A stretch of DNA of 64,000 bases from a virus (IMGVR_UViG_3300033141_002732); one strand, 5' to 3'; positions 35,513 through 50,400 are shown, numbered from the stretch's first letter. Notes: generated from the letters alone by a model not told the origin. Numbers and translations are program-made.

Positions 35513-36501
35513 AAATAATAATGAATTTATTTAACGTGGGACTTGGTAATAATGGCGGAAGTATGACATTAGTTAGATCTGCAAATACATTAGTAAATTT
35601 AGGACATGAAGTCATTATAGTTGATGGAGGAAAAAATAAACATACATGGACTAAATTAAAAGCTAAACATTTGATTATTAGAGATACAAATCAAATACCA
35701 GAAGCTGATGTAATAGTCGCTACGGGAATGAAAAGTATTTCTTCAACTAATAAAAGTAAAATTAAAAATAAATTTATATGGTTAAGAGGTTGGGAAACTT
35801 GGGTTTTTTCAGAAGAAAAAATTATAAATATGTTGAAAAATTCTTCTTGTATAAAAATTGTAAATAGTATATGTTTACAAAATAAACTAAATAGTTTTAA
35901 TATAAATTCTGAAATTATTAGACCGGGTTATGATTTTAATGAAATATATCCTTTAGAAATTAAAAAGGGAAAAAATATTATTTTAGGTGGTTTATATTCT
36001 GTTCCAAAACATTTTACTACAAAGAGAACTAAATGGATTTTAGAAGCAGTTTCATCTTTAAAAAGTGATCGAATTTTAAATGTAAAATTATGGATGTTTG
36101 GTTCACCTTCTGATCCGAAAAATAATATTATTGATAAGTATTTTTGCCAACCAGATATTCAAACAAAAAATAAATTTTATAATAAAATAGACATATGGTT
36201 AAGCCCAAATACTTTAGAAGGATTACATATAGTTCCAGCTGAAGCTATGCTGACTGGTTGTCCAGTTATTGGAACGAATTCTGAAATGTCTGGTTTACAA
36301 GATTATCTTATTCATAATTCTACTGGTTTAGTATCTGAAAATGATTTTGATAGATTTTTAGCAAATATAATATATTTAATTCAAAATAAACAAAAAAGAT
36401 TAGAAATGGGAAGAAACGCTAGAAATAAAATTTTAGGAATTGGAGATAGAAAAACAAATATGAAGAAAATGATTTCTTTTATTGAAAGGAATTGTAAATG
36501 A
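35509..36501 (+). CDS. GT4 (GT-B, family 1 superfamily) glycosyltransferase
   Basis: 'EGLHIVPAEAMLTGCPVIGTNSEMSGLQDYLIHNSTGLV' matches the E-x7-E / 'EAMA.G.PVI' GT4 motif. Confidence 0.7.
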   Translation: MKIIMNLFNVGLGNNGGSMTLVRSANTLVNLGHEVIIVDGGKNKHTWTKLKAKHLIIRDTNQIPEADVIVATGMKSISSTNKSKIKNKFIWLRGWETWVFSEEKIINMLKNSSCIKIVNSICLQNKLNSFNINSEIIRPGYDFNEIYPLEIKKGKNIILGGLYSVPKHFTTKRTKWILEAVSSLKSDRILNVKLWMFGSPSDPKNNIIDKYFCQPDIQTKNKFYNKIDIWLSPNTLEGLHIVPAEAMLTGCPVIGTNSEMSGLQDYLIHNSTGLVSENDFDRFLANIIYLIQNKQKRLEMGRNARNKILGIGDRKTNMKKMISFIERNCK

Positions 36502-36696: not shown

Positions 36697-37542
36697 TTGA
36701 TAATGAATGAAAATGAAAAAATTAAAGTATATTCTGTATCTGTAATAATGGAACATCTAGATAAGTGTATACAAAATAAAGATCCATTTTCTTTAATTAG
36801 ATTTGGAGATGGAGGACTTAAATTTATTCATTCATTAGTGTTTAATGATGATAGACAATTAGAAATAATTTTGAGAAAAGAAGGAATTCCTAGAAGTAAT
36901 ATGATAGAGATCTTTGAAAAATGGGGATATTATGTTAGAAAAGCAGATTATATAGATACTCCACAAGTTTATTTTTCTAAGACATTTTGGCCTCGTTATA
37001 GAAAAAATTTTAAACCTATGAATCCTTCAACTATTTCAAAATTAAAAAATTGGAAAGATTTATATAATAGAGCTGAATTTGATAATGATAATTATTGTAA
37101 TCCAGAGATTAATTATTTATCTATAATTAAAAGAGAAAATAAAGTTAATCTTTTTGATGTAATGAAAAGCAGAAAAATATGTTGTATTACTGCAGTTCCA
37201 GAATGTATGGATAGTTTTATAAATTTAGAAGTTGATATTGTTCAAATAGTAAAACAATATCAAAATCATTATTTAAATTCATATCATGATGTAGTTAGAA
37301 TAATAAAAAAAGCTGCAACCAACTATGATTTATGGTTAGTTGCAGCTGGAGAAATTGGAAGAATATATAGTGGATTAATTAAAGAATATGGTGGTAGATC
37401 TTTTGATATTGGATTTGTTGCGGAATATTGGAAAGATTATGATATACCTATTAGATTAAGTTATTTTTTAAAACCAGATTATAAAAATAAAACACAACTT
37501 ATATTTACAAAATTAGGAGAACCTTATGAGGAGTTAATATAG
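36697..37542 (+). CDS. paralog family A member 1 (possible GT-D/DUF1792-like glycosyltransferase)
   Basis: N-terminal 'DPFSLIRFGDGG', C-terminal 'LWLVAAGEIGRIYSGLIKEYGGRSFDIGFV..YW'. Confidence 0.45.
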   Translation: MIMNENEKIKVYSVSVIMEHLDKCIQNKDPFSLIRFGDGGLKFIHSLVFNDDRQLEIILRKEGIPRSNMIEIFEKWGYYVRKADYIDTPQVYFSKTFWPRYRKNFKPMNPSTISKLKNWKDLYNRAEFDNDNYCNPEINYLSIIKRENKVNLFDVMKSRKICCITAVPECMDSFINLEVDIVQIVKQYQNHYLNSYHDVVRIIKKAATNYDLWLVAAGEIGRIYSGLIKEYGGRSFDIGFVAEYWKDYDIPIRLSYFLKPDYKNKTQLIFTKLGEPYEELI

Positions 37543-37544
37543 AA

Positions 37545-38444
37545 ATGAATCTTATAATTCCAGTTGAGTCGATTTTTCAAAATAAAGGTGGAGTGATATT
37601 ATATAATCCATATAAAAATAAAATTATTGATTATTATATTCATGATAGAAAATGGAGGAGAGTTGGTTGGAGAGGTGGAATTTTATATAATGATTATTTA
37701 ATAGCTACTGATTGGAATGAATTACATTATTTCAATATAAAAAAATGGAAGTATGAATATACATTTAGAAAAAAGAGTTTTAATGATCTTCATTATGTAC
37801 AAGTTAACAAAAATAAATTATTTGTTGTTAATACAGGTATTGATGCAATAGAAATATTTAATAATCCAATGGAACCAAAATTTGAAAGAATTGAATTTGT
37901 ATTTAAATTAAATAAAATGTTTAAAGATAGATATATTGATTTAAATAGAAAATATAATAAAATGTATAAAATAAAACCACATTCATGTCACCCTAATTGT
38001 ATATCTTTTAATGAACATGGAACTTATATTACATGTTTTCAAAGACAACAAAAAATAAATACAGGTCAATTAATTGATATGAAAAGTGGTAAAAAATTGT
38101 TTCATAGAAATATGGATTGTCATGATGGATTATTTTATAAAAATGATTTTTATTTAACAAAAACTAGACAATCAAAAATTTTGAAATTTAAAAATCTGAG
38201 ACCTGTGAAAAATAATATACCAGACGAAATTATTGATATTGGTCATAAAGGTTGGTGGCGAGGTATGGTTATTCATAATGATATAATATTTATTTTTTGT
38301 AGCAGAGGTTATTCTAATAAAAAATCTAAAGCAATTATGGCTATGATAGATTTACAAACACAACATACTACTTTTAAGAAACTTCCAGTGTGTGGTGATA
38401 TACATTGGGATACAATTTATCAACCAAATGTTTTTGAGGGATAA
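37545..38444 (+). CDS. hypothetical protein
   Basis: 299-aa ORF between family-A paralogs. Confidence 0.4.
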   Translation: MNLIIPVESIFQNKGGVILYNPYKNKIIDYYIHDRKWRRVGWRGGILYNDYLIATDWNELHYFNIKKWKYEYTFRKKSFNDLHYVQVNKNKLFVVNTGIDAIEIFNNPMEPKFERIEFVFKLNKMFKDRYIDLNRKYNKMYKIKPHSCHPNCISFNEHGTYITCFQRQQKINTGQLIDMKSGKKLFHRNMDCHDGLFYKNDFYLTKTRQSKILKFKNLRPVKNNIPDEIIDIGHKGWWRGMVIHNDIIFIFCSRGYSNKKSKAIMAMIDLQTQHTTFKKLPVCGDIHWDTIYQPNVFEG

Positions 38445-39233
38445 ATGTTATATAATCTTAATCATATTTTAAAAGATATTGAATATCATTTAAATAATAA
38501 AAAACCATTCTCTTTAGTTCGATTAGGAGATGGAGATATTAAATTATTACATTCAGCATGTCAAGGAATTGTTCATAATGATAAATTTAGAAGACAAGGA
38601 ATCCCAGGAAGTGATTTAAATATAGTTATTCAAATATATAGAAAAAGTTGTAATAATGCTAATTATATTTCTTCTTTTGATGTATATTTTGATGGTAATT
38701 TTTGGTCAAGAAAAAGTTCTTCTGGAACTAGAAAAAAGTTAGAAAGCTGGAAAAAAATTTATAAAAAAATTGGAATTCAAAATCAAAGTTATTGCAATCC
38801 AGAAATTGGTTTTCTTTTGTTTTTAAGATCTAAATATAATTTATTTAACTTAATTAAAGATAAAAAAATATGTCTTATTACTTGTTTTAAGTCTATTGAG
38901 TTAAAATTACGAAAACTTAATTATGATGTGAATACTATATTAATTCCAAAAATATATTCAAATCATTATTCTAAATACAAACCAAATAAATTATTGATAA
39001 AAAGTTCTATTGAGAAAAATGATATATTTTTAATTGGAGCTGGAGGACTCGGAAAAGGTTATTCAAAAGTTATTAAAAGAAATGGTGGGATAGCAATTGA
39101 TATTGGTCAAGTTTTTAATTCATGGGCTGGAAGTGTAATACCTCCTAGAATTTCAAAGTATATGAAATTAAATGAAAAAGATTTGACATTTAGATTTACA
39201 AAAATTGGAGAAAAATTTAGAGAATGGATATAA
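38445..39233 (+). CDS. paralog family A member 2
   Basis: 'KPFSLVRLGDGD', 'IFLIGAGGLGKGYSKVIKRNGGIAIDIGQVFNSWAG'. Confidence 0.45.
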   Translation: MLYNLNHILKDIEYHLNNKKPFSLVRLGDGDIKLLHSACQGIVHNDKFRRQGIPGSDLNIVIQIYRKSCNNANYISSFDVYFDGNFWSRKSSSGTRKKLESWKKIYKKIGIQNQSYCNPEIGFLLFLRSKYNLFNLIKDKKICLITCFKSIELKLRKLNYDVNTILIPKIYSNHYSKYKPNKLLIKSSIEKNDIFLIGAGGLGKGYSKVIKRNGGIAIDIGQVFNSWAGSVIPPRISKYMKLNEKDLTFRFTKIGEKFREWI

Positions 39234-39460
39234 AGAATATTCCAGAAGGTTATTATGTTTGTCCACAATGTAATGGAACTGGTTCTGATTATACTGAAAT
39301 TAGAGAAAATAAAAAATATTCTAGAATTTGTGATAAATGTAATGGTGGTGGAATAATAGATTGGATTACAATGATATTACCTTGTAAACATAATATGTCA
39401 ACTATACGAGAGTATAAACTTACTTTTATACATAACAAAAAAAGAAGGAGAAAAAAATGA
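39224..39460 (+). CDS. small DnaJ-type zinc-finger-like protein
   Basis: 'CPQCNGTGSD...CDKCNGGGII' CxxCxGxG repeats. Confidence 0.35.
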   Translation: MDIKNIPEGYYVCPQCNGTGSDYTEIRENKKYSRICDKCNGGGIIDWITMILPCKHNMSTIREYKLTFIHNKKRRRKK

Positions 39461-40590
39461 AAACAATATTAGTAACAGGCGCTGATGGTTATTGCGGTTG
39501 GCCAACGATTTTAAGATTATTATCAGAAATTCCTATGTGTAAAGTTATAGGAGTTGATAACCAGTCAAGAAGAGAATGGGTTAAAGAAATTGGTTCTGAT
39601 AGTGTAATACCAATTTATAATTTATATGAAAGGTCTAAATTAGTTGATAAAGATAAACTTGAAGTTTTTAAAAATTGTGATTTAACTGATTATAATATTG
39701 TAAATGATTTATTTACAAAATATAAACCAGATATTGTTCTGCATCTTGCTTCACAACCTTCTGCCCCATATTCTCATATTGATATTGAACATTGTAACTT
39801 TACACAACATAATAATCTTCAAATGTTAAGAAATATATTATGGTCTTTAAATAACAATAAAATGGATCGTACTCATTTGGTTGTTACAACAACAACTGGA
39901 ATATATGGCGCGCCTTCATTTAGAATTCCAGAAGGAAATTTAGACATTGTTGATAAATTATTACCATATCCATCAATGGGTGGAAGCTGGTACCATATGA
40001 GTAGAGCACATGATGCAGCAAATTTATGGTTAGCAAATAAACAATTTAATTTTCCTATAACTGAAATGAGAACTTCTATTGTTGTGGGAAGTTCAACTCG
40101 TGAAACGAGAGTAGATCCAATTTTAGCAACAAGAACTGATGTAGATTTTTATTTTGGAGTTGTTACAAATAGATTTGTTGCTATGGCTTTGAAGAATGAA
40201 CCGCTTACAATATATGGAAAAGGTTTACAAGGGAAACCTATGATTTCTTTGGAAGATATGGTTAAATCTATGGTTGATATTTGTAAAGTTGATCCAACTA
40301 GTAGAGAAAATAAATATGAAATATATAACCAAATGGAAAAAGTAGTTCCTATAGTTGATATTGCACAAACTATTAAAGCTACAATGAATATAATGTTTGG
40401 ATTGAATGTCGAAATAAAACATATTCCAAATCCTAGAATTGAAGATGAATCTCATCATATGGAAATGGATAATTTTAAATTTAAGAAATTAATAGGTGGT
40501 AAATTTATTTGTCCTATAGAACAAGCAGTTTCTCAAATGTGTTCAGATTTGTACAAATATAAAGATAGAATAGGAAAGTTTAGTAATTAA
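39457..40590 (+). CDS. NAD-dependent sugar-nucleotide epimerase/dehydratase, SQD1 (UDP-sulfoquinovose synthase)-like
   Basis: N-terminal 'ILVTGADGYCGWPTILRL' resembles the SQD1 'GGDGYCGW' Rossmann motif; 'YHMSRAHD' YxxxK-like region. Confidence 0.55.
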   Translation: MKTILVTGADGYCGWPTILRLLSEIPMCKVIGVDNQSRREWVKEIGSDSVIPIYNLYERSKLVDKDKLEVFKNCDLTDYNIVNDLFTKYKPDIVLHLASQPSAPYSHIDIEHCNFTQHNNLQMLRNILWSLNNNKMDRTHLVVTTTTGIYGAPSFRIPEGNLDIVDKLLPYPSMGGSWYHMSRAHDAANLWLANKQFNFPITEMRTSIVVGSSTRETRVDPILATRTDVDFYFGVVTNRFVAMALKNEPLTIYGKGLQGKPMISLEDMVKSMVDICKVDPTSRENKYEIYNQMEKVVPIVDIAQTIKATMNIMFGLNVEIKHIPNPRIEDESHHMEMDNFKFKKLIGGKFICPIEQAVSQMCSDLYKYKDRIGKFSN

Positions 40591-40607
40591 AAAGGAGATA
40601 TAGAATT

Positions 40608-41606
40608 ATGTTAAATATTACAGTTCTCGGAGGATTAGGTTATATTGGAAGTCATTTAAGTAGAATGCTAGTTGATTCTGGACATAATGTAACAATTTTA
40701 GATATTGCTTGGTTTGGATTTGATCATATAAATGATGTTTTAGAGAAAGAGAATTGTGAATGGATTAATGGAGATATCAGACATTCAGAAGATCTAAGTT
40801 GTGCTATAAAGAATAGTGATGTTGTTGTTCATCTCGCAGGAATAGTTGGAGACCCTGCTTGTTCACTTGATAATGATGAAACATGGTTACAAAATATTGA
40901 ATCTTCTAATTTAATAGTAGATGTTTGTAATCATTATGATATTCAAAAATTTATATTTGCATCTAGTTGTAGTGTATATGGTGCAGCACCATCTGATATT
41001 CTTCTTAATGAAGGATCTTATTTAAATCCTGTTTCCTTATATGCAGAAAGTAAAATAAAATCTGAAAAAATCTTTCTTAGTGAATTTAATAATATATGCA
41101 CAATTTTACGATTATCTACTGTTTTTGGATATTCTGAAAGAATGAGATTTGACCTTGTTGCTAACCTTTTTACAATAAAAGCAATTAAAGAGAAAAAGAT
41201 TCAGGTGTTTGGTGGATCTCAATATAGACCTTTTATTCATTGTAAAGATGTTGCAAGAGCAATTAAAAAAGTTATTGATTTTCCAGATAAAATTAAAATT
41301 GATAAAGAAGTATTTAATATTTCAGTTGAAAATATCTCAATACGAGAACTTGGTATACTAGTTTCTGAATTAACTGATTCTGATATAGAACTTGTTGAGA
41401 CAAAAGAAGATGATAGAAATTATAAAGTATCTGCAGATAAAATAAAATGGTTACTGGGTTATAAACCATATTTTGGTTTAGCTTCTGGTATTTTACATAT
41501 GATAGAATCTATAAAAGGGAAAAGATTTGATGATTGGGTAACAAATAAACAAAAATATGAGAATGTAAATAATCTTCAAGAAAGGAGAAAAACAAACATA
41601 AAATGA
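40608..41606 (+). CDS. NAD-dependent epimerase/dehydratase (SDR family)
   Basis: 'ITVLGGLGYIGSHL' Rossmann motif, 'YAESK' catalytic YxxxK. Confidence 0.65.
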   Translation: MLNITVLGGLGYIGSHLSRMLVDSGHNVTILDIAWFGFDHINDVLEKENCEWINGDIRHSEDLSCAIKNSDVVVHLAGIVGDPACSLDNDETWLQNIESSNLIVDVCNHYDIQKFIFASSCSVYGAAPSDILLNEGSYLNPVSLYAESKIKSEKIFLSEFNNICTILRLSTVFGYSERMRFDLVANLFTIKAIKEKKIQVFGGSQYRPFIHCKDVARAIKKVIDFPDKIKIDKEVFNISVENISIRELGILVSELTDSDIELVETKEDDRNYKVSADKIKWLLGYKPYFGLASGILHMIESIKGKRFDDWVTNKQKYENVNNLQERRKTNIK

Positions 41607-42112
41607 AAAAGGAGTTTTTTATGAAGTATATAGTTTATTTAGTAGGTCAGATTACAGCAAATCCAGAAACATATGCTTGGAGAGAAAGAGTATCATTATA
41701 TTTTAATACTAACAGAAATAAAGTTGATTCTGATATTGAAGTTATTAATCCATGTAATAGTTTGTTTAATAAGAATTTAATTGATAATTGTAGAAATAAT
41801 TCTGTTGAGTATTCAAAATGGGTATTAAAACGAGATCCGAGTTTATTAGTTCCAAAAGATAGAAGATTTGTTAAAAGAGCAAATGTATTATTTGTTAATA
41901 TGAATATGTATTCTCCTGAGAAACCAATGTTAGGATCTTTTTTTGAATTAGCTTGGGCTTATGATTCTCCAGAAAAGATGGTGATTGGAATATTTAATGG
42001 AGATCATGAAAAAGATTTTCAGTGTAGACATCCATTTGTTAGTCAAATTATACATTCTTGGGTTAAAGATGAAATTGAAGCCTGTAAATTATTAGAATAT
42101 TATATTGATTAA
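41603..42112 (+). CDS. nucleoside 2-deoxyribosyltransferase-like protein
   Basis: 'YLVGQI...' N-terminus and 'PMLGSFFELAWAY' resembling the NDT 'GTAFEiGyA' active-site Glu region. Confidence 0.45.
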   Translation: MKKEFFMKYIVYLVGQITANPETYAWRERVSLYFNTNRNKVDSDIEVINPCNSLFNKNLIDNCRNNSVEYSKWVLKRDPSLLVPKDRRFVKRANVLFVNMNMYSPEKPMLGSFFELAWAYDSPEKMVIGIFNGDHEKDFQCRHPFVSQIIHSWVKDEIEACKLLEYYID

Positions 42113-42325
42113 AGTGAATTAAAGTGAGGTGAAAAATTTGAAAGAAATAAAATTTTTATTAAAACATTTATATACAACAGCATTAGTTTCTTCATGATGG
42201 TTATATGTATATATTCCTAATAATTATTCTTTATCTTTATCAACAATTTTTAGTGTAATTACTATTATTTTAGCATGTTGGTATTTAGTTTATCATTGGG
42301 ATGATTGTTAGAAAGGATTTTTGAT

Positions 42326-42568
42326 ATGATGAGAAAAAATGGGTTATTAGATTTTGTTATGGGAGTATTATATGCTACTATATTATGGGCACATTTTACT
42401 TTTAAATTGGAGTGGTTGCTTCCTTTTATTTTAATTAGTACTATTGCTACAGTAATTATGTTTGTAGTAAGATCATTTTTACAAAAGGAAAAAAGAAATC
42501 ATAATAAAACAAATAAAAAAAGTTCTTTAGAAGAAGTAACTAATGTAAAAATAGGACCTTTAGGATAG
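42326..42568 (+). CDS. small membrane protein
   Basis: Two TM helices; start moved to the ATG at 42326 (the ORF-track start is TTG). Confidence 0.35.
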   Translation: MMRKNGLLDFVMGVLYATILWAHFTFKLEWLLPFILISTIATVIMFVVRSFLQKEKRNHNKTNKKSSLEEVTNVKIGPLG

Positions 42569-42582
42569 AAGGGAGTTTTCTA

Positions 42583-43740
42583 ATGATAAAAGTTGCTGAA
42601 CCTATTATTGATGATAAAGAAATAGATGTTGCAATTTCAGTATTAAAATCTGGAAATTATACATCTGGTAAATATGTTCAAAAATTTGAAGAAATGTTTG
42701 CAGAATATATTGGAGTTAAATATGCTGTAGCTGTGAATAGCGGAACTGCTGCTCTACACCTTTCTTTATTATCATTGGGATTAACTAAAGATAGATATTC
42801 AAATGGAGAAGTTATTGTTCCACCAATGACATTTTTTGCAACTATATCTTCTGTTTTAAATGTTGGGTTAATTCCTAATTTTGTAGATACAAATTATATT
42901 TGTAATATTGATCATACATTAATAGAGTCAAATATTAATGAAAATACATTAGCTATTATACCAGTACATTTTTATGGACATCCATGTAATATGAATGAAA
43001 TAATGAAAATAGCTAATAAATATAATCTTTTTGTAATTGAAGATTGCGCTCAAGCACATGGAGCTTCTATAAATAATAAAAAAGTTGGTTCTTATGGTAT
43101 AACTGGATGTTTTTCATTTTTTGCTACTAAAAATATGACTACTATAGAAGGCGGAATGATTACTACTGATGAAAAGTTTATATATGAAAAAGCTAAAAAA
43201 TTAAGAAGTCATGGAATGATTGATAGAGATACACATTCTTTACTTGGTTATAATTATAGAATGAATGAATTATCTGGAGCTATTGGAATTGAACAATTAA
43301 AAAAGTTAGATATGTTAAATAAAAAAAGAATTGAAAATTCTGAATATTTATCTAAAAATATAAAACAAACTAATTTTATACAACCATTGTATAATGAAAA
43401 TTTTTTGACTGTCTCTAATTGTAAAAATAATACATATAAAAATGTCTATTTTTGGTTTCCAATAACAACAATGAAATTTTGTTCTGTTGATTTAAAAAAT
43501 CATTTAAAGAAGAATGATATTGGTTTTAGAAGTAGATATAATGAACCATTATATAAACAACCATTATTTAGAGAATATACATATAAACCAAATAGATGTA
43601 GATGTGAAAATGCCGAATTATTTTCTGGAGTAGTTTTTGGATTACCTAATCATCCAGGTTTATCAAGAGAGGAATTAGATAAAGTTATTGATGTAGTTAA
43701 TACTTTTGAATTTAAAGTATATGATGAATTTGATTTCTAA
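42583..43740 (+). CDS. DegT/DnrJ/EryC1/StrS-family PLP-dependent sugar aminotransferase
   Basis: 'AEPIIDDKEIDVAISVLKSGNYTSGKYVQKFEEMFAEYIGVKYAVAVNSGTAALHLSL' is the canonical family N-terminus; 'FSFFATKNMTTIEGG' has the Lys region. Confidence 0.75.
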   Translation: MIKVAEPIIDDKEIDVAISVLKSGNYTSGKYVQKFEEMFAEYIGVKYAVAVNSGTAALHLSLLSLGLTKDRYSNGEVIVPPMTFFATISSVLNVGLIPNFVDTNYICNIDHTLIESNINENTLAIIPVHFYGHPCNMNEIMKIANKYNLFVIEDCAQAHGASINNKKVGSYGITGCFSFFATKNMTTIEGGMITTDEKFIYEKAKKLRSHGMIDRDTHSLLGYNYRMNELSGAIGIEQLKKLDMLNKKRIENSEYLSKNIKQTNFIQPLYNENFLTVSNCKNNTYKNVYFWFPITTMKFCSVDLKNHLKKNDIGFRSRYNEPLYKQPLFREYTYKPNRCRCENAELFSGVVFGLPNHPGLSREELDKVIDVVNTFEFKVYDEFDF

Positions 43741-43772
43741 TTCTTTGTAATTAAAAATAAGGATATTTAATT

Positions 43773-44627
43773 TTGAAAAAATTAGACAGACAATTATATT
43801 ATATTCATAGTACAGAAGAAATATTAAAAGATTTAAATAATTGTATTAGAAAGAAAAAACCATTTTCTGTAATGAGATTTGGTGACGCTTGTTTGGGAAT
43901 TATGTGTTCTTTTTTAGCTCCAAATTTTATAAAACATGGAAAATGGAAAGGTGGACAAAAGTGTGGTTTAGCTAATTCAATATTTAGACAATTAGGAGTT
44001 CCAGTAAAGAGAAGAAAACTAATATGTAATAAACTTGTAAAATATGCAAATGAAGCTAATTATATAGATTCTTTTGATTGTTATTTTACTGAAATGAAAT
44101 CGAAAAAAGGAATTGGTAATTTAGCATTTAGTTGGAAAGAAATTCATGAATTAATTGGTATTACAAACGAATCTTATTGTAGTACTTTTTTACATTATTT
44201 TTCAATAGTGGATGGAGAATATAATTTATTTAATGTAATGAAAAATAGAAGTGTATTTTGTATAAGTAATCAAGTTCAAGTAACTAATTTATTAAAAGAT
44301 AAGAGTGGAGCTAAAATAATAGATTCATATAAAATACCAAGAAGAGGTGGTAAATTTCATTACCAAAATCATTATAGAAATGTTATAAATATGATTAAAA
44401 AGAATTCTACTAAATATGATCTATTCTTAATTGGAGCTGGATTATTAGGTAAAATATATTGTGGAGTTATTAAAGAGAATGGTGGAAGAGCATATGATGT
44501 TGGACGATTATTTGATTTTTGGGCTGGAATAAGAAAAATTGATTCTAGACCAAAAAGATTTATTCAAATGGATCATTCTAAATTTTTATGTAATAGATTA
44601 AAGAACTTTGGTGGTAAAGTTTGGTGA
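43773..44627 (+). CDS. paralog family A member 3 (TTG start)
   Basis: 'KPFSVMRFGDAC', 'LFLIGAGLLGKIYCGVIKENGGRAYDVGRLFDFWAG'. Confidence 0.45.
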   Translation: MKKLDRQLYYIHSTEEILKDLNNCIRKKKPFSVMRFGDACLGIMCSFLAPNFIKHGKWKGGQKCGLANSIFRQLGVPVKRRKLICNKLVKYANEANYIDSFDCYFTEMKSKKGIGNLAFSWKEIHELIGITNESYCSTFLHYFSIVDGEYNLFNVMKNRSVFCISNQVQVTNLLKDKSGAKIIDSYKIPRRGGKFHYQNHYRNVINMIKKNSTKYDLFLIGAGLLGKIYCGVIKENGGRAYDVGRLFDFWAGIRKIDSRPKRFIQMDHSKFLCNRLKNFGGKVW

Positions 44628-45724
44628 AAGGGAAAATAATGATGAATTGTGTATCTAAATATATAACTATAAAAGATGAAATGAAATTAGAAGCATATTA
44701 TATTAAATCTCCATTACTTTCTGATTATAATTTGTCTTTTGGATCAATTGATTGTTATGATTCAATTTTTGTAATTATATCTGATAATAATAAAATGGGA
44801 ATTGGAGAGGTTACTAATTTATTTAAGTATTCTAGATATACTATTGATGAGGTATGGAATTATACAATCCAATGGTTGTCTGATTTTTCTTTAAATAAAT
44901 TAAATTCAATTGTAAGAAAAAATTTTAAGAGTGTTGCTATTAATCTTGCAATTGAAACATATAATGATGATTTTTTAAATAAAATTTCTAATTTAAAATT
45001 AGAAGTTCCAGTTAGCTATACTTTAACTGATGTAAATGATATTGATATATTAGATATAATTAGTAAATTTGGTGATGTATTTAAATTTAAAATTGGAAAA
45101 GATATTTATCAAGATATTTATAACATTGGTTATATACAATCTAAATTAAGAGGAACTAACTTTAAACTTAGACTAGATGCTAATCAAGGTTACAGTCTTC
45201 TTGATGCTAAAAAATTTCTAAAATGTGTTCTAGATAAAAATATTGAACATTTTGAACAGTTACTTCCAAGAGATCAATCTTATATGAATCGTGAATTAAT
45301 GAAAGAATTTCCGCATAAATTTATATTAGATGAAAGTATTTTTAGTAATAGTGATATAGCAGTTATGTCTGAATCTAAAACAGCACATGGAGTAAAGTTA
45401 AAATTATTTAAACATAATAGTATACAAGAAACAATTGATCTTATATATAATATTCCAGATGAATTTGATATCATTTTTGGAAATGGAGTACAATCTTATA
45501 TAGCAACAATATATGAAATGTATATATTTAATGAAGCAAAAAAAATAAAACAAAATTTAAATCCTATTTCTGAAATTAATGGTATATTAAAATTGTCAGA
45601 ACAACTTGGTGGAGTGTCCTATTCAGGAAATAAATTAATTGTGAATGTAAGAGAATTAATTAATAATTTCTTTAAATTTTTAGAGGAACATTGTAATGTC
45701 AACAATAATAGGATTAGCTTGTAG
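44621..45724 (+). CDS. enolase-superfamily enzyme (MR/MLE-like, e.g. dipeptide epimerase/OSBS-like)
   Basis: 'FKLRLDANQGYSL' (R.DANQ..), 'FILDESIFS', 'KLKLFKHNS', in the order of MR/MLE metal ligands. Confidence 0.45.
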   Translation: MVKGKIMMNCVSKYITIKDEMKLEAYYIKSPLLSDYNLSFGSIDCYDSIFVIISDNNKMGIGEVTNLFKYSRYTIDEVWNYTIQWLSDFSLNKLNSIVRKNFKSVAINLAIETYNDDFLNKISNLKLEVPVSYTLTDVNDIDILDIISKFGDVFKFKIGKDIYQDIYNIGYIQSKLRGTNFKLRLDANQGYSLLDAKKFLKCVLDKNIEHFEQLLPRDQSYMNRELMKEFPHKFILDESIFSNSDIAVMSESKTAHGVKLKLFKHNSIQETIDLIYNIPDEFDIIFGNGVQSYIATIYEMYIFNEAKKIKQNLNPISEINGILKLSEQLGGVSYSGNKLIVNVRELINNFFKFLEEHCNVNNNRISL

Positions 45725-46934
45725 TTTAAGAAGTAAGATTGATGAAAAGTGGGTAGAAAAGGTATGTAAGGAAGAAATAAAAACTGATCAAGATTTACAT
45801 AATCTTATTGAAATACTTGGAAGAGATAAAGTTATTAGTAATTCAGATGCTTGTTTAATTGCTGCTATGTATGGAGTAGTTAAAGAAGAATGTGATATAA
45901 AAGTTATTAGAATGTCAGATTTTCATCCTTCAATATTAGATTCACTTATATTTAGAGGAGTTATTGTGTCTACTCCAGTTTATTTTGGAGATAATTCCTC
46001 ATATTCGAAAAAATTCTTTTATAAGATGAGAGATTTAAAATTATTAAATTCTAAAGTATTTTCTGTATTATCTGTTGGAGCTAAAAGAAATGGTGGTCAA
46101 GAAACAAGTAATATATTTTCATTATATGAAGCACTATCTCAAGGGTGTAGACTTGTAGGAAATGGTTTTGCTATATCACAATATGGTGGGACTGCTTGGG
46201 CTGGCGATCTTGGTTCTGTTAGAGAAGATACATATGGAATTGAAACAAGTTTAAGTACTGGAATGAATAATGCAAGAGTTTCAAATTTATTCATTGAAAG
46301 ATCTTTTAATATAAAAGAAAAAACAAAATTAAATATTACTTTTCTTAATACTAAAAATAGTAATATTTATTCTTTTGTAGATAAGTTACAAAACTTAATA
46401 CCAAAAAATTTAATAGATTTATATGTAAGTTATATTGATATTTCTAGATATTATATTTCTCCTTGTAAAGCTTGTTCAGTCTGTCCAAAACCAAATTCTA
46501 AAATTGATTATAAATGTAGACAAATTGATGAGAATAAAGAAATTTGTGAACGTTTAGTAAATTCAGATCTAATAGTTAAAGTTAATGATCATGATATAGA
46601 TTTTGATATTTTTATGGAAAGAACTAGACATTTGAGAAGAGATAATTATAGATTATCTCATATTCCATTCGTTACTTATATTGATAAACAATGCGATAGT
46701 TCTTTTGTTGTAATTAATGATTTTACTAAATTTATTAGACATAATGTAATTATATTTCCTCCTTTAATAACTACAAATTATAAAAATCAAACATTAAAAG
46801 GTAATGATACTGATGAATATTATGTAAGAAAAATGTTAGATTATATTGCAGAAGCACTTAGAATTAAGAAGAACAAAATAGAAAATAAATCTACTTTTGA
46901 ATATAAACCAATAGGTTATAAGCAGAAAGGATAA
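45696..46934 (+). CDS. flavodoxin-fold (NAD(P)H-dependent FMN reductase-like) protein with Cys cluster
   Basis: 'VIVSTPVYFGDNSSYSKKFFYKM' resembles the FMN-reductase 'SPeYngs..g.lKn..D' region; 'CKACSVCP...C'. Confidence 0.3.
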   Translation: MSTIIGLACSLRSKIDEKWVEKVCKEEIKTDQDLHNLIEILGRDKVISNSDACLIAAMYGVVKEECDIKVIRMSDFHPSILDSLIFRGVIVSTPVYFGDNSSYSKKFFYKMRDLKLLNSKVFSVLSVGAKRNGGQETSNIFSLYEALSQGCRLVGNGFAISQYGGTAWAGDLGSVREDTYGIETSLSTGMNNARVSNLFIERSFNIKEKTKLNITFLNTKNSNIYSFVDKLQNLIPKNLIDLYVSYIDISRYYISPCKACSVCPKPNSKIDYKCRQIDENKEICERLVNSDLIVKVNDHDIDFDIFMERTRHLRRDNYRLSHIPFVTYIDKQCDSSFVVINDFTKFIRHNVIIFPPLITTNYKNQTLKGNDTDEYYVRKMLDYIAEALRIKKNKIENKSTFEYKPIGYKQKG

Positions 46935-46936
46935 AT

Positions 46937-48019
46937 ATGTATAATATATTAATTTCAACTTCTGGTGCTGGAAATGCTAATAATTTGGTTAGAAGTTTAC
47001 AATCATCTAATGATCTTAATATGATTACAAATCTTAATATAATTGGTATAAATAGTTCTGAATATGAATTAAGTAAATCAATAGCGCATAAAAAATATTT
47101 AGTTCCAAAATTTAATAATCCCGAATATGTGAATTCTATTTTAGAAATATTTAATCGAGAAAAAATAGATTTTTTTATACCAAATCATGAATTTGAAATT
47201 GAAGCTTTATATAGATATGATAATCAAGAGATTTTAGATAAATGTTTTTTACCATCTTTTGAAACAGTTGTATTATGTAATAATAAATATAATTTAAATA
47301 AGAAATTACATGAAGAAGGAATTTATGTTCCAGTATCTATAAATATACAAAAATGGTTTGATATAGATTCTTATTTTGATGAACAACTAGTTGAAAAACC
47401 TGCTTGGTGTAGATTAATTAGAGGTGCTGGTTCAGCAGGTGCAACTCTAGTTTATGATAAAGAACATGCTAAATCATGGATTGAGTATTGGATAAGTCAT
47501 AAGGGAGCAGAAATTGATCAATTTATGTTAAGTGAATATTTGCCATTTGAAGATTATCACTTTTTTAGTCTTTGGAAAGATGGAAATATGATAATTGGTA
47601 AATATATTGAAAGATTAGCTTATGTATGTTCTAAATATACTTTAACAGGAACATCTTCTTCACCATCTGTTTGTAAATTAGATAATGATCCAGTAATTAA
47701 AGCGATATGTGAAGAAGCAGTTAAATGTATTGATCCAAATGCAAATGGTTTATTTGGAATAGATTTAAAATGTGATTCTCGACATTCACCATGTATAACA
47801 GAAATTAATATAGGAAGGTTTCCAAGAATTAATCCAATTTTTAGTATGGTTGGAAATAATATAGCAGAACTATTTGTAAAAATTGGATTAGGATTAGAAG
47901 AATATGAAATAGATGAAAAACTTGATGATGATATTTATTATATGTTTAGAGATTTTGATACTGAACCAGTAATAATACATGCAAAAGATTTAAAAAATAA
48001 ATATACTAATTTAAGTTAG
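46937..48019 (+). CDS. ATP-grasp ligase
   Basis: 360-aa ORF with 'ITEINIGRFP' resembling the ATP-grasp C-terminal 'E.N.R' motif and 'DQFMLSEYLP...EDYHF' central-domain-like segments. Confidence 0.45.
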   Translation: MYNILISTSGAGNANNLVRSLQSSNDLNMITNLNIIGINSSEYELSKSIAHKKYLVPKFNNPEYVNSILEIFNREKIDFFIPNHEFEIEALYRYDNQEILDKCFLPSFETVVLCNNKYNLNKKLHEEGIYVPVSINIQKWFDIDSYFDEQLVEKPAWCRLIRGAGSAGATLVYDKEHAKSWIEYWISHKGAEIDQFMLSEYLPFEDYHFFSLWKDGNMIIGKYIERLAYVCSKYTLTGTSSSPSVCKLDNDPVIKAICEEAVKCIDPNANGLFGIDLKCDSRHSPCITEINIGRFPRINPIFSMVGNNIAELFVKIGLGLEEYEIDEKLDDDIYYMFRDFDTEPVIIHAKDLKNKYTNLS

Positions 48020-48062
48020 CAATTTTATAATGTTATTATAAAATTCAGGAGGAGTTATTTTT

Positions 48063-48962
48063 ATGGTTCGTATATTTGGTACCAGATATATTTTAAAACA
48101 TTTAAATAGTTGTATAGTTCATAATAAATCTTTTTCTACTATTAGATTTGGTGATGCTTGTTTATTTATATTATCTTCAACTTTTTGTAGACAATTTGAA
48201 AAGGGAAAAGGTAAAATTTCAAATAAAATTTTTGATGGATTGAATATTCCTCCAAATAAAAGATTAGAAATAGTTCAAGATTTGGTTAAATATGCTAATC
48301 AAGCAGATTATGTTGATGCACAAAGTGCTGTACTAGTTGAGATTCCAAAATTTCTTCCTATTATGGAAGAATTTATAAAAAGTGGAAATACTAATTTTGG
48401 TCAAGTTTGGGAAAGATTATGTTTAAAAACTAAGGGACAAGGAAGAGGTGTAGGAAATGTAATGAGTAGATGGAGAGAAATTTATAAAGAATCTGGAATA
48501 ACAAATAATTCATTTTGTAGTCCTCATCTTCATTCATTTTCTATAATTGATGGTGAATATAATTTATTTGATATAATGAAAAATAGGAATATTTTTTGTA
48601 TAAGTAATAATATTGAAGTTTGTGATAGATTACAAAAAAAGAGTGGTGCTAAGAATATAGATTATTTTAGAGTTGTGAGGAGAGGATCTAAAAAACACTA
48701 TCCATTATATTATCAAAACGTAATGGATATAATATCTAAAAAAGCTATTAAATATGATCTATTCTTAATTGGAGCTGGATTATTAGGAAAGATATATTGT
48801 GGTTATGTAAAAGAATGTGGTGGTAGATCATTCGATGCTGGAAGGTTATTTGATGTATGGAAAGGTAAAAATATTAGATCTATTCCAGCTAGATTTTTAG
48901 TGATGAATAAACAAAAAATGCTTTGTGAAAGAAAGAAAAATAAAAATGGGAGAGTATGGTAA
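48063..48962 (+). CDS. paralog family A member 4
   Basis: 'KSFSTIRFGDAC', 'LFLIGAGLLGKIYCGYVKECGGRSFDAGRLFDVWKG'. Shares a near-identical 53-nt DNA stretch with member 3. Confidence 0.45.
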   Translation: MVRIFGTRYILKHLNSCIVHNKSFSTIRFGDACLFILSSTFCRQFEKGKGKISNKIFDGLNIPPNKRLEIVQDLVKYANQADYVDAQSAVLVEIPKFLPIMEEFIKSGNTNFGQVWERLCLKTKGQGRGVGNVMSRWREIYKESGITNNSFCSPHLHSFSIIDGEYNLFDIMKNRNIFCISNNIEVCDRLQKKSGAKNIDYFRVVRRGSKKHYPLYYQNVMDIISKKAIKYDLFLIGAGLLGKIYCGYVKECGGRSFDAGRLFDVWKGKNIRSIPARFLVMNKQKMLCERKKNKNGRVW

Positions 48963-49177: not shown

Positions 49178-49480
49178 ATGAAAGGAGCAAATGAAAAATT
49201 CTTTGATAGCAAGAGTGTAAAAAGGAGATTAGAAATACAAAAATCTTCTAAAAAGAATAAAAGTATGTTAGAAATTTTAGAAACTGAAAATGAACAACGA
49301 TATTTAGAGAAAGAAGTTGCTGATAAATTAAGAATAAAAATTAAAGAAATAAATGAAATATTAAAAGAATGTGATAATTTACAAATAGACGTTGATATAA
49401 ATTATAATAATCTTCCAAGTAGAATATATATAAATAATATTAGAAAGATAATAAACTTAGTTGAAGGAGAAATTAAATGA
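49178..49480 (+). CDS. small hypothetical protein
   Basis: 100 aa with SD 'aaaggtatttgaaaaatg'. Confidence 0.3.
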   Translation: MKGANEKFFDSKSVKRRLEIQKSSKKNKSMLEILETENEQRYLEKEVADKLRIKIKEINEILKECDNLQIDVDINYNNLPSRIYINNIRKIINLVEGEIK

Positions 49481-50400
49481 ATATAGTAATAACAGGTGGT
49501 GCTGGTTTTATTGGTTCACATTTAGCAGATAGATTAATAGAATCTAGTTATTTAAATAAAGTTTTTATATTAGATAATTTAATTACAGGAAGAATGGATA
49601 ATGTAAATCCAGAAGCAATTTTTTATAATATAGATATTTCAGATACTGAAAAAGTTGAAGAATTTTTTAGGGGAAAGAAAATTGATATTGTAATTCATGC
49701 AGCCGCTACTGGAGCTGATCCAAATAATTGGAAAATGGATACAATGTCAAATGTTTTAGGAACTGTTAATATAGTTAAACAATCTTTATTGTGTAGAATA
49801 GAAAGATTAATTTATTTTCAAACTTCTCTTTGTTATGGAACTCCTCAAACAAACCCAATAACTTTAGATCATCCAATAAATCCTACTAATAGTTATTCAA
49901 TAACAAAAACAGCAGCTGAAAGATATATTGCAATGAGTGGACTTAATTTTATATCTTTTAGATTAGCTAATTGTTATGGACCTAGAAATTTAGCTGGTGC
50001 TGTTCCAACTTTTTATCATAGGTTAAGTCAAGGACAATCATGTTTTGTATATAATACTCGAAGAGATTTTGTATATATTGAAGATTTGGTTAACATTGTT
50101 ATGAGAGCTGTTTGTGGTTATGGAGAAAAAGGATATTATCATATTTCTACTGGAAAAGATTATCCCATATTAGATATATATAATATTGTTGCAAATCAAC
50201 TTGGAATTGATACAAAACCTGAAATAAAACCAATGATGAAAGAAGATGTTGAAAGTATATTATTAGATCCATCAGTTACTAAAAAAGTTTTTGAAGTGAT
50301 TCCAAGAACTCTCTTAGATTATGGAATTAGAAAAGCAATTAATTGGTATAAAGAGCATGGTATTACTGAAACATATACTCATTTACCAAAGGAGAAATAA
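49477..50400 (+). CDS. NAD-dependent epimerase/dehydratase (dTDP-/UDP-sugar 4,6-dehydratase or epimerase-like)
   Basis: 'MNIVITGGAGFIGSHLADRL', 'YSITKTAAE' (YxxxK). Confidence 0.7.
   Translation: MNIVITGGAGFIGSHLADRLIESSYLNKVFILDNLITGRMDNVNPEAIFYNIDISDTEKVEEFFRGKKIDIVIHAAATGADPNNWKMDTMSNVLGTVNIVKQSLLCRIERLIYFQTSLCYGTPQTNPITLDHPINPTNSYSITKTAAERYIAMSGLNFISFRLANCYGPRNLAGAVPTFYHRLSQGQSCFVYNTRRDFVYIEDLVNIVMRAVCGYGEKGYYHISTGKDYPILDIYNIVANQLGIDTKPEIKPMMKEDVESILLDPSVTKKVFEVIPRTLLDYGIRKAINWYKEHGITETYTHLPKEK

What the first reader, a model, noticed from the sequence alone, without database searches (positions are those of the whole stretch)
36697..48962. Four-member paralog family (RFGDG...LIGAG.LGK.Y...K..GG...D.G..F..W.G) scattered through the glycan island
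ORFs 36697-37542, 38445-39233, 43773-44627 and 48063-48962 (262-299 aa) share an N-terminal 'KPFS[LV][IV]R[FL]GD[GA]' motif and a C-terminal Gly-rich block. Members 3 and 4 share a near-identical ~53-nt DNA stretch (44412-44465 vs 48750-48802: 'aaatatgatctattcttaattggagctggattattagg...atatattgtgg'). That points to recent duplication or gene conversion. The N-terminal motif recalls the GT-D (DUF1792) glycosyltransferase fold, but I cannot confirm this. Four diverged copies suggest stepwise addition of different residues to one acceptor, or a diversifying transferase set.
Basis: seen in the sequence. Interest (0 to 1): 0.75.

Follow-up and report, generated by a model that had tools for sequence, protein, structure and literature searches.

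The report
Four GT-D-like glycosyltransferase paralogs in phage
An uncultured large phage carries four old, diverged copies of a rare-fold (GT-D-like) sugar-transferring enzyme inside a 33-kb sugar-building gene island, and three of the four have moved one of the two acidic residues that the only studied enzymes of this fold use to hold their metal ion.

Summary

The GT-D idea is therefore supported. "Recent duplication or gene conversion" is not. Each copy has its own orthologs on other phage contigs, so the duplications are old. The 53-nt near-identity is an 18-residue invariant peptide in a 24%-GC genome (P about 0.03-0.06).

The window is from an uncultured large phage. m1 belongs to a GT module conserved in 16 related phage loci. 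It always follows a GT4 gene and is fused to it once. m2-m4 lie in the variable sugar-nucleotide region.

New point: only m2 keeps the acidic D-x-[DE] metal motif. m1, m3 and m4 lack the second acid but have an invariant Asp at the end of strand beta2. Across 287 family domains the two states never co-occur.

Best reading: soluble Leloir transferases that extend a phage-specified glycan step by step, probably on a protein. The acceptor is unknown. This is a new variant of a known kind, of moderate interest.

The parts
36697..37542 (+). m1: GT-D-like paralog, the conserved core copy. Motif R35-F-G-D38-G-G40 has no second acid; Asp87 in 'YID'.
   Evidence: PF22882 43.3 bits. Orthologs lie directly after the GT4 gene in 16 related phage loci and are fused to GT4 in L032/P0127. 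The m1 clade forms its own group in the tree.
38445..39233 (+). m2: GT-D-like paralog that keeps an acidic pair (D29-G-D31); Ser76 in 'YIS'.
43773..44627 (+). m3: GT-D-like paralog. Motif D38-A-C40 has no second acid; Asp99.
   Evidence: PF22882 41.5 bits. AF2 pLDDT 93.7 with the same order of elements as m2. 59 metagenomic homologs, all PF22882. Orthologs in L032, L033 and L034.
48063..48962 (+). m4: GT-D-like paralog, sister of m3 (54% identity), with a roughly 25-residue insertion. Motif D31-A-C33; Asp85.
   Evidence: PF22882 36.7 bits. Ortholog L032 10779-11768. P0048, P0050-P0052 are the m4-like proteins.
44412..44465 (+). Near-identical DNA block in m3 (partner 48750-48802 in m4), encoding KYDLFLIGAGLLGKIYCG.
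   Evidence: 51/54 bases identical. Null expectation 46.3/54, P=0.03.
48750..48802 (+). Partner of the near-identical block, in m4.
35509..36501 (+). GT4 (Glycos_transf_1) glycosyltransferase, the constant upstream partner of m1.
   Evidence: Pfam families on the source record. Adjacent to the m1 ortholog in 16 loci. One polypeptide with m1 in P0127.
37545..38444 (+). 299-aa protein (weak DUF4915 match) that sits between m1 and m2.
   Evidence: PF16261 19.8 bits, below GA. In L032 and L033 a gene of similar size (297 and 301 aa) sits between the m1 and m2 orthologs, and in L034 one (303 aa) follows the m1 ortholog; their homology to this ORF was not tested. A confirmed homolog (60% identity) follows the m1 ortholog in L010.
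27343..28620 (+). GT9-like (heptosyltransferase family) protein, first gene of the conserved GT module.
   Evidence: PF01075 34.8 bits. Conserved in 15 loci.
29418..30254 (+). Conserved module member with no family assignment.
   Evidence: Conserved at 49-58% identity in 15 loci. No Pfam, PHROG or NCBIfam hit.
33163..35512 (+). Paralog pair 33163-34080 and 34694-35512 of unknown family, inside the conserved module.
   Evidence: BLASTP E=1e-27 between them. Conserved in 16 and 5 loci respectively.
39457..43740 (+). Donor cassette after m2: UDP-sulfoquinovose-synthase-like SDR, a second SDR epimerase/dehydratase, a small nucleoside-deoxyribosyltransferase-like ORF, and a PseC/LegC-like aminotransferase.
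   Evidence: NF041015 312 bits (below cutoff) and TIGR03588 257.7 bits (below cutoff). Pfam families.
44621..48019 (+). Cassette between m3 and m4: enolase-superfamily protein, flavodoxin-like/FMN_red protein, ATP-grasp ligase.
49477..53812 (+). Cassette after m4: SDR epimerase, SAM methyltransferase, Asn-synthase-like amidotransferase, amidohydrolase_2, NeuD/PglB/VioB-like acetyltransferase.
56932..59960 (+). Distal end of the island: TylF-like O-methyltransferase, GT2, and WecB UDP-GlcNAc 2-epimerase (above the NCBIfam cutoff).

Best explanation
The four ORFs are ancient paralogs of a phage-specific branch of the GT-D-like (Pfam PF22882) family. PF22882 is a sister family of the DUF1792/GT-D glycosyltransferases. 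I propose that they are soluble, cytoplasmic, nucleotide-sugar-dependent transferases that work in series with the neighbouring GT4, GT9-like and GT2 enzymes. Together these would build a phage-specified hetero-oligosaccharide. m1 acts as a fixed pair with the GT4 enzyme in a core that is conserved across this phage lineage. m2, m3 and m4 add further residues. Each is encoded next to a different cassette that makes an unusual donor: a sulfoquinovose-like or amino sugar; an acylated or amidated sugar; a methylated or acetylated sugar. The acceptor is most likely a protein, plausibly a virion protein, glycosylated in the cytoplasm before assembly. m2 would use the classical D-x-[DE] metal site. 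m1, m3 and m4 would supply the second carboxylate from an Asp at the end of strand beta2 instead. Shown here: homology, fold, orthology pattern, gene order, motif states and absence of membrane machinery. Inferred: catalytic activity, seriality, donor assignment, protein acceptor and carboxylate relocation.
For: Family and fold:
- PF22882 hits all four above GA.
- A broader family profile hits 4pfx at E=0.002 and aligns both motifs.
- The m3 model is confident, with the same order of elements as m2.

Old paralogs:
- Each copy has orthologs on other contigs.
- L032 and L034 carry 4 copies and L033 carries 3, in similar order.

Coupling to GT4:
- GT4 and m1 are adjacent in 16 loci and fused in P0127.
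- GT4+DUF1792 fusions are known in serine-rich-repeat-protein glycosylation clusters (PMC6291802).
- DUF1792 performs the third step of a serial cytoplasmic O-glycosylation (PMC5207161).

Glycan context and a hint of protein acceptors:
- In the wider family the domain is fused to TPR repeats, GT2, GT25 and sulfotransferase domains.

No sign of a lipid-linked pathway:
- No polytopic membrane protein, flippase, polymerase or priming transferase was found among 39 ORFs from 27343 to 59960.

Motif states:
- The wider family is nearly always GDGE. The m2 clade is GDGD/GDGE. The m1 clade is GDGG. The m3/m4 clade is GD[AG][CVIGA].
- Position 76 is Asp in 100% of m1, m3 and m4 clade members. It is Ser in the m2 clade and Gly in distant relatives.
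- Among 287 domains, 173 have the acid at +2 only, 109 have Asp76 only, 0 have both and 5 have neither.
- All other family-wide invariant residues are kept in all four copies.
Against: - No member of PF22882 has, to my knowledge, been characterised, so activity rests on fold and distant homology (14-20% identity to DUF1792).
- Three of the four copies lack the Glu of the DXE motif that is described as required for catalysis in GT-D (PMC9804384, PMC6493773).
- The Asp76 relocation rests on about three independent switches on an approximate NJ tree. Spatial proximity could not be measured because the tools return no coordinates.
- No acceptor protein was identified. No structural genes lie next to the island in the 64-kb window or in the 10 kb beyond it.
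- A GT9-like enzyme and WecB are also typical of envelope-glycan pathways.
Confidence: 0.6

Rival explanations
1. The island, including the four GT-D-like enzymes, remodels a host envelope glycan (LPS core/O-antigen, capsule, S-layer or flagellin glycan) during infection. The purpose could be to block superinfection or alter receptors. In this reading the phage's own proteins are not the target.
For: The GT9 heptosyltransferase family, WecB UDP-GlcNAc 2-epimerase above cutoff, and PseC/LegC-like and NeuD/PglB/VioB-like enzymes are typical of cell-surface glycan pathways. Cellular relatives of the family sit in glycan clusters with GT2, epimerase and methyltransferase genes.
Against: The 33-kb island has no flippase, polymerase, ligase, ABC exporter or polyprenyl-phosphate priming transferase, and no polytopic membrane protein. 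The GT core is conserved across phages with 24-39% GC that probably infect different hosts. That is easier to explain if the acceptor is phage-encoded. The only characterised enzymes of this fold act on a cytoplasmic protein-linked glycan (PMC5207161).
Confidence: 0.22
2. m1, m3 and m4, which lack the DXE glutamate, are catalytically dead paralogs. They would serve as acceptor-binding, scaffolding or chaperone subunits for active partners (GT4 for m1; m2 or others for m3/m4). The non-catalytic GtfB/Gtf2 partner of GtfA/Gtf1 in serine-rich-repeat-protein glycosylation is the model.
For: The second metal ligand is lost in three clades. m1 is tightly coupled to GT4 and fused to it once. Gtf1/Gtf2 acting as a two-protein complex is a precedent (PMC5207161).
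Against: All other family-invariant polar residues (the Arg and Asp of RxGD, the HY pair, Lys211, Asp219, Trp227 in m2 numbering) are kept in these clades. The loss of the acid is always matched by gain of an invariant Asp at position 76, with 0 of 287 domains having both and only 5 having neither. That pattern looks like compensation, not decay.
Confidence: 0.15
3. The enzymes glycosylate phage DNA (hypermodified bases carrying sugars) to evade restriction.
For: Phages use multiple GTs and sugar-nucleotide cassettes to hang diverse glycans on 5hmC (bioRxiv 10.1101/2023.12.21.572611). Nucleotide-metabolism genes lie in or near the island: PyrE-like, OMP decarboxylase, Nudix, QueC, dCMP deaminase and a MazZ-like domain.
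Against: Known DNA glycosyltransferases have GT-A or GT-B folds and cluster with ThyS, 5mYOX or C5-methyltransferase genes (same preprint). The fold here is GT-D. A motif scan of all six frames of the window found no thymidylate-synthase-like or C5-MT signature (a crude test). At least six genes with glycosyltransferase-family hits (GT9-like, GT4, GT2 and the four GT-D-like copies), plus three further conserved module genes of unknown family and about 15 sugar-tailoring enzymes, are far more than any described DNA glycan needs.
Confidence: 0.06
4. One reading: m3 and m4 arose by recent duplication, or were recently homogenised by gene conversion over the 53-nt block.
For: 51/54 identical bases, including the rare codons CTA (6% usage) and TTC (5% usage). 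In this block the within-genome m3/m4 pair is more alike (51/54) than either is to its L032 ortholog (42/54 and 45/54).
Against: m3 and m4 are only 54% identical in protein and differ by a 25-residue indel. Each has its own ortholog in L032. TTC and a C-initial Leu codon are also present in orthologs from other phages. L032 has 35% GC against 24% here, which alone lowers cross-genome codon identity. P is about 0.03-0.06 for a window chosen after the fact. Flanking synonymous sites are not elevated. A conversion tract of about 40 nt cannot be excluded.
Confidence: 0.08

Closest known systems
DUF1792 / GT-D glycosyltransferases (N-terminal domain of Streptococcus parasanguinis dGT1; PDB 4PFX, 4PHR, 5V4A; Pfam PF08759)
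   Different: Only 14-20% identity. PF08759 is below threshold for all four. Three of the four lack the Glu of the DXE Mn2+ motif. They are encoded by a phage, not by a Gram-positive SecA2/Y2 adhesin locus. No serine-rich repeat acceptor is in view, and the donors are probably unusual sugars rather than UDP-Glc.
Pfam PF22882 'GT-D fold-like domain' / NCBIfam NF040628 'GT-D_rel' proteins of bacteria (often TPR-fused; Alphaproteobacteria, cyanobacteria, Acidimicrobiia, Bacillota)
   Same: All four pass the PF22882 threshold. They share the RxGD, HY, GAGxLGKxY and GGxAxDxG...W motifs. Multi-copy arrays also occur in cellular genomes: 3-5 copies in the Bacillota MAG loci L098, L107 and L111.
   Different: The wider family is almost uniformly GDGE and frequently fused to TPR, GT2 or sulfotransferase domains. 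The phage clade consists of stand-alone proteins (or GT4 fusions), and most of it has the Asp76 state instead. Only 58 of 1793 family representatives score E<=1e-30 against the phage-clade profile. The four are below the NF040628 cutoff (27-38 vs 75 bits).
Virus-encoded cytoplasmic glycosylation machineries (mycobacteriophage capsid/tail-tube glycosylation, as summarised in PMC12619734; chlorovirus and mimivirus glycan gene clusters, from my own knowledge)
   Same: The virus carries its own soluble GTs plus nucleotide-sugar genes with no membrane export machinery. The gene content is variable, island-like, between relatives. The GT-D-like fold is also predicted in Moumouvirus, Hyperionvirus and Homavirus proteins.
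   Different: Those systems use GT-A or GT-B enzymes as far as described. No GT-D enzyme has been reported from a virus in the literature I could search. Virion glycosylation is not shown here.
TagA/TarA/WecG (GT-E fold)
   Different: Lower structural score than GT-D, only 157-160 aligned residues, no shared sequence motifs, and no Pfam WecG hit.

Membership tests
GT-D glycosyltransferases (DUF1792, PF08759) | GT-D three-dimensional fold | tested here: met
GT-D glycosyltransferases (DUF1792, PF08759) | Asp-x-Glu (DXE) Mn2+-binding motif, described as required for catalysis (PMC9804384, PMC6493773). I take it to be the D-G-E of 'RFGDGE' seen in the 4pfx and 5v4a sequences; the mapping to that tripeptide is my inference. 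| tested here: not met
   m1 has D-G-G, m3 D-A-C and m4 D-A-C. Only m2 keeps an acidic pair, as D-G-D. The Asp is invariant in all four.
GT-D glycosyltransferases (DUF1792, PF08759) | Score above the Pfam PF08759 gathering threshold (27 bits) | tested here: not met
   Only m2 matches, at 19.8 bits. TIGR03728 (SP_1767 family) gives 18 bits for m1 against a cutoff of 290.
GT-D glycosyltransferases (DUF1792, PF08759) | UDP-sugar-dependent, Mn2+-dependent transfer onto a protein-linked O-glycan | not testable with these tools
   This needs enzyme assays. No serine-rich repeat protein or SecA2/Y2 genes are present in the window.
GT-D fold-like domain (Pfam PF22882) | Score above the PF22882 gathering threshold (27 bits) | tested here: met
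   43.3, 40.8, 41.5 and 36.7 bits. The homologs of m3 and m2 in the 5.8-billion-protein collection carry PF22882, apart from two short fragments and one 199-aa protein with no Pfam entry.
GT-D fold-like domain (Pfam PF22882) | Family-wide invariant residues (m2 numbering): R26, D29, G200, Y206, D219, G221, W227 | tested here: met
   Present in all four copies.
GT-D fold-like domain (Pfam PF22882) | Consensus 'GDGE' (acid at +2 from the invariant Asp) | tested here: not met
   Nearly universal in the wider family. It is absent from m1, m3 and m4 and conservatively replaced (Asp) in m2.
NCBIfam NF040628 GT-D_rel | Score above the curated cutoff (75 bits) | tested here: not met
   38.1, 38.3, 33.2 and 27.6 bits. 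The four are related to the model but outside its trusted range.
GT-E (WecB/TagA/CpsF) | GT-E fold as best structural match, or a sequence-family hit | tested here: not met
Phage DNA glycosyltransferases | GT-A or GT-B fold, and clustering with ThyS/5mYOX/C5-MT genes (bioRxiv 10.1101/2023.12.21.572611) | tested here: not met
   The fold is GT-D. A six-frame scan of the window found no ThyA-like or C5-MT motif. That scan is crude, and the rest of the roughly 152-kb genome was not seen.

The most novel reading that the evidence does not exclude
These are the first GT-D-fold glycosyltransferases assigned to a virus, and they define a sub-type of the fold in which the second metal-binding carboxylate has moved from the DXE motif to the end of strand beta2. 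Four such enzymes, each tied to a different rare-sugar cassette, would work with a conserved GT9-like/GT4 core. Together they would form a phage-encoded cytoplasmic O-glycosylation line that coats virion proteins with a complex, strain-variable (possibly sulfonated) glycan in a widespread lineage of large uncultured aquatic phages.
Probability: 0.3. Interest if true: 0.72.

Novelty: new variant of a known kind. Interest (0 to 1): 0.55.

Why it matters
GT-D is the least explored of the glycosyltransferase folds. In the literature I could search, only the streptococcal DUF1792 enzymes have been studied. The sister family PF22882 has about 1,800 representative members and none that I know to be characterised.

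This locus offers a compact natural experiment: four paralogs in one operon-like island. One has the classical acidic pair and three have the alternative Asp, and each sits next to a different donor cassette. Testing them would show whether the DXE motif is really obligatory for the fold.

It would also assign donors to an uncharacterised family. And it would show what a conserved five-to-six-gene glycosyltransferase core is for in a lineage of large phages with contigs up to 312 kb. Virus-encoded glycosylation of virions affects host recognition and immune evasion, so the acceptor is worth finding.

Tried and rejected
- Megablast of 33000-55000 and tblastn of m1 and m3 against 50,697 phage records found no match. 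PHROGs has no family for m1 or m3. Cultured phages therefore gave no context.
- A tblastn search with a recombinase from the window (1921-3207) shows only 27-29% identity to any cultured phage. The lineage and host remain unknown.
- The phage-clade profile (A3) against PDB sequences gave only spurious herpesvirus gB hits at E>0.1. Single sequences (m2, P0078) gave nothing relevant. Only the broader profile A4 reached 4pfx.
- I could not obtain full-length DUF1792 sequences. A search with the 69-residue 4pfx fragment returned only short fragments, so no profile-profile alignment over the whole domain was made. Zhang et al. 2014 is not in the library, so the residue-level description of the Mn2+/UDP site could not be read.
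- I considered that Caulobacter FlmG (TPR + GT flagellin glycosyltransferase) might be a characterised PF22882 member. TPR+GT-D-like proteins do occur in Caulobacteraceae, Brevundimonas and Asticcacaulis. However, the papers call the FlmG domain GT-B (PMC7591256), and I had no FlmG sequence to test. A flagellin-motif scan of 80 cellular loci found nothing (crude regex). This is left as an untested lead.
- I considered that the lineage might be the 'moraphages', large aquatic phages with four core glycosyltransferase groups (PMC12619734). There were no shared identifiers or sequences to test this.
- The genome-contig scan with A3 failed for lack of a conserved stretch. It was repeated with A5.
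- A look-up of DNA upstream of the window failed. The 10 kb downstream holds nucleotide-metabolism genes but no structural genes and no obvious acceptor.


Full report
**What the window is.** The 64-kb window has about 24% GC. It carries phage replication and recombination genes on the minus strand up to about 18 kb, judged from the ORF translations: recombinase-, clamp-loader-, primase-, helicase-, RNase H- and ribonucleotide-reductase-like. From about 27 kb onward there is a long plus-strand block of sugar genes. The same DNA is on JGI metagenome contigs of up to 151,964 bp. It has no nucleotide or GT-D-like protein match among 50,697 deposited phage genomes. A recombinase from the window is only 27-29% identical to any cultured phage. 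This is therefore an uncultured large phage.

**Checking the observation.** The four ORFs exist at the stated coordinates.
- They align over their full length with 37 invariant columns.
- The most distant pair (m2 vs m4, 26-27% identity) gives BLASTP E=1e-25 with composition-based statistics. The shared motifs are homology, not AT-rich coincidence.
- All four exceed the Pfam gathering score for PF22882, 'GT-D fold-like domain'.
- The 53-54-nt near-identical stretch is real: 51/54 bases.

**Fold.** An AlphaFold2 model of m2, built on a 29-sequence alignment, is confident (pLDDT 91.9, pTM 0.91).
- Against the PDB, Foldseek puts the three DUF1792 GT-D structures first, and only these have E<1e-3.
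- A model of m3 is equally confident (pLDDT 93.7) and has the same succession of strands and helices.
- At the sequence level, a probe retrieved the N-termini of the crystallised proteins: 4pfx '...HASVVRFGDGEIDLM', 5v4a '...GASVVRFGDGEMDLV'.
- A profile of diverse PF22882 members hits 4pfx/4phr at E=0.002. It aligns both this motif and the C-terminal block: 'LFLVGAGvLGKiY...GGiAiDIGsv' against 'LILVMLGPTAKVL...GYQAIDLGHI'.

**Age of the paralogs.** A pattern scan of IMG/VR found 30 loci on viral contigs of 9-312 kb, most of them over 35 kb.
- In 16 of them the GT-D-like gene is the ortholog of m1.
- It sits in a conserved, collinear block equivalent to window 22939-37542: unknown 409-aa protein, Nudix hydrolase, actin-like protein, GT9-like, an unassigned protein, the 33163 family (sometimes with its paralog), GT4, then m1.
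- In the window this block is interrupted by an HNH endonuclease gene (28801-29424) and a minus-strand insert (30382-33041).
- Downstream of m1 the loci diverge in content but keep sugar-nucleotide genes.
- Three further metagenome contigs carry several copies in the same relative order as the window. L032 has four, with GT4 and m1 fused into one 616-aa protein. L033 has three. L034 has four.
- In a neighbour-joining tree, m1, m2, m3 and m4 each cluster with their counterparts from these contigs rather than with one another.

The duplications therefore predate the divergence of phages whose orthologs are now about 40-60% identical. The set is an inherited, maintained feature, not a recent event.

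**The 53-nt block.** It encodes the invariant peptide KYDLFLIGAGLLGKIYCG, with 15 of 18 codons identical.
- Given the island's extreme codon bias, two independent encodings of this peptide would share 46.3/54 bases on average, and reach 51 or more with P=0.03.
- Against the gene-wide same-codon rate for identical residues (0.636), P=0.06.
- The two rare shared codons (TTC Phe and a C-initial Leu codon) are also present at these positions in m3/m4 orthologs of other phages. They are probably ancestral.
- A very short conversion tract cannot be excluded, but nothing requires it.

**The catalytic motif.** GT-D enzymes are described as defined by an Asp-x-Glu motif that binds the Mn2+ needed for catalysis (PMC9804384; PMC6493773). 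I take this to be the D-G-E of RFGDGE. That mapping is my inference from the sequences, because the primary paper was not available.
- Across the wider PF22882 family the motif is almost uniformly GDGE.
- In the phage clade it differs by paralog. The m2 clade has GDGD or GDGE. The m1 clade has GDGG. The m3/m4 clade has GD[A/G] followed by C, V, I, G or A.
- A clade-by-clade conservation table shows a matching change elsewhere. The residue at the end of strand beta2 (position 76 in m2; 'YI-D/S') is Asp in 100% of m1, m3 and m4 clade members. It is Ser in 94% of the m2 clade and Gly in 86% of distant relatives.
- Over 287 domains that keep the invariant Asp, 173 have an acid at +2 and none at 76. 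Another 109 have Asp76 and no acid at +2. None has both and five have neither.
- Parsimony on an approximate tree puts DXE as ancestral, with about three switches.

I read this as relocation of the second carboxylate, which would keep the enzymes active. This is an inference. The number of independent events is small, and I could not measure distances in the models.

**Context and likely mechanism.**
- The island from 27343 to 59960 encodes six proteins with glycosyltransferase-family hits (GT9-like, GT4, GT2 and the four GT-D-like copies). It also encodes three conserved proteins of unknown family.
- It encodes about fifteen sugar-tailoring enzymes: a UDP-sulfoquinovose-synthase-like SDR, two further SDR epimerase/dehydratases, a PseC/LegC-like aminotransferase, an enolase-superfamily protein, a flavodoxin-like protein, an ATP-grasp ligase, two methyltransferases, an Asn-synthase-like amidotransferase, an amidohydrolase, a NeuD/PglB/VioB-like acetyltransferase and a bona fide WecB epimerase.
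- None of the 39 ORFs in the island is a polytopic membrane protein. There is no flippase, polymerase, ligase or priming phosphotransferase. This points to assembly on a soluble acceptor in the cytoplasm.
- The only characterised enzymes of this fold do exactly that, as one step in a serial O-glycosylation of a protein (PMC5207161, PMC5063993). They occur fused to GT4 or GT-A domains (PMC6291802), as m1 does in L032.
- In cellular genomes the PF22882 domain is very often fused to TPR repeats, a protein-binding module. It is also fused to GT2, GT25 and sulfotransferase domains.
- Each extra paralog in the window lies beside a different tailoring cassette.

Taken together, the best-supported model is a set of soluble Leloir transferases that add different residues in sequence to a phage-specified glycan. 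m1+GT4 would form a fixed core step and m2-m4 variable decorations. A protein, plausibly a virion protein, is the most likely acceptor, but none was identified.

**Rivals.**
- Host-envelope remodelling is the main alternative. GT9, WecB and Pse/Leg-like enzymes are typical of it. Against it stand the lack of any export or lipid-carrier genes and the conservation of the core across phages of very different GC.
- The pseudo-enzyme reading of m1, m3 and m4 is weakened by the retention of all other invariant residues and by the compensatory pattern at position 76.
- DNA glycosylation is unlikely. Known DNA glycosyltransferases are GT-A or GT-B and cluster with ThyS/5mYOX (bioRxiv 10.1101/2023.12.21.572611). 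No such signature was found in the window, and the enzyme count is excessive.

**Novelty.**
- PF22882 and NF040628 already name the family 'GT-D-like', so the fold assignment itself is in the databases.
- Not described in the literature I could search: GT-D-type enzymes in phages, the conserved GT module of this phage lineage, the inherited four-paralog set, and the mutually exclusive DXE / Asp76 states.
- BFVD shows the fold is also predicted in a few giant-virus proteins and one uncultured phage protein, all uncharacterised.
- The phage clade is small: 58 of 1,793 family representatives at E<=1e-30 among 1.84 billion proteins.

I rate this a new variant of a known kind, of moderate interest.

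Noticed in passing
window 25419-26480 (+): Phage-encoded actin homolog with a strong match to Pfam Volactin (PF25216, 224 bits). It is the best-conserved gene of the syntenic block, at 60-69% identity in 14 related phage loci, and lies just upstream of the glycosyltransferase module.
   Followed up: partly
window 33163-34080 and 34694-35512 (+): A second paralog pair in the island (BLASTP E=1e-27, 36% identity over the N-terminal 140 residues; shared 'GPFIG.(F/L)(Y/F)WEF.RF.P' start). It has no Pfam, PHROG or NCBIfam match. The first member is conserved in 16 related loci and the second in 5. This may be another unrecognised transferase family.
   Followed up: partly
window 4178-5056 (-) and 28801-29424 (+): Two HNH-type endonuclease genes with almost identical C-terminal halves ('...VLKRDDYKCVYCGEKAEHVHH.RPQKLEPFF.LDPDFGISVCK.CHYKYGHKDECNTGNLANRIC'). 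The second is inserted inside the conserved glycosyltransferase module, and L010 has a homolog at the same position. This looks like a mobile homing endonuclease.
   Followed up: no
window 30382-33041 (-): A block of minus-strand genes interrupts the otherwise plus-strand, collinear GT module. It includes a two-TM protein (32586-33041), a 228-aa protein that looks coiled-coil/SPFH-like by eye (31607-32293; no tool was run on it) and Cys-rich small proteins. It is absent from the related loci.
   Followed up: no
window 39457-40590 (+); L032-L034: An SDR most similar to UDP-sulfoquinovose synthase (NF041015, 312 bits, below the 575 cutoff). Related phage loci carry several sulfotransferase-like genes, which hints at sulfonated or sulfated sugars in the phage glycan.
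   Followed up: partly
window 54986-56796 (+): An RF-1/GGQ-domain protein (124 aa), a PyrE-like phosphoribosyltransferase and an OMP decarboxylase sit inside the sugar island. Their link to it is unexplained.
   Followed up: no
window 57827-57905 (+): A tRNA-Arg(TCT) gene lies between the TylF-like methyltransferase and the GT2 gene.
   Followed up: no
L115 1-10000 (DNA just beyond window position 64000); window 6812-7666 (-): QueC, dCMP deaminase, a dGTP_diPhyd_N (MazZ-like) domain protein and another GT1-family gene lie directly after the window. L033 also carries QueC. The window ORF 6812-7666 looked to me like a queuosine-salvage (DUF2419) protein, from memory and not tested. Together these suggest modified purines (7-deazaguanine type) in this phage's DNA.
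   Followed up: no
L098, L107, L111 (Bacillota MAG contigs): Arrays of three to five GT-D-like genes within 10 kb also occur in cellular genomes. Multi-copy sets are therefore a recurring habit of this family, not a phage peculiarity.
   Followed up: no
BFVD hits to the m2 model: The GT-D-like fold is predicted in uncharacterised proteins of Moumouvirus australiensis, Hyperionvirus and Homavirus (one fused to a GT2 domain, one to a methyltransferase) and in an uncultured Caudovirales protein.
   Followed up: no
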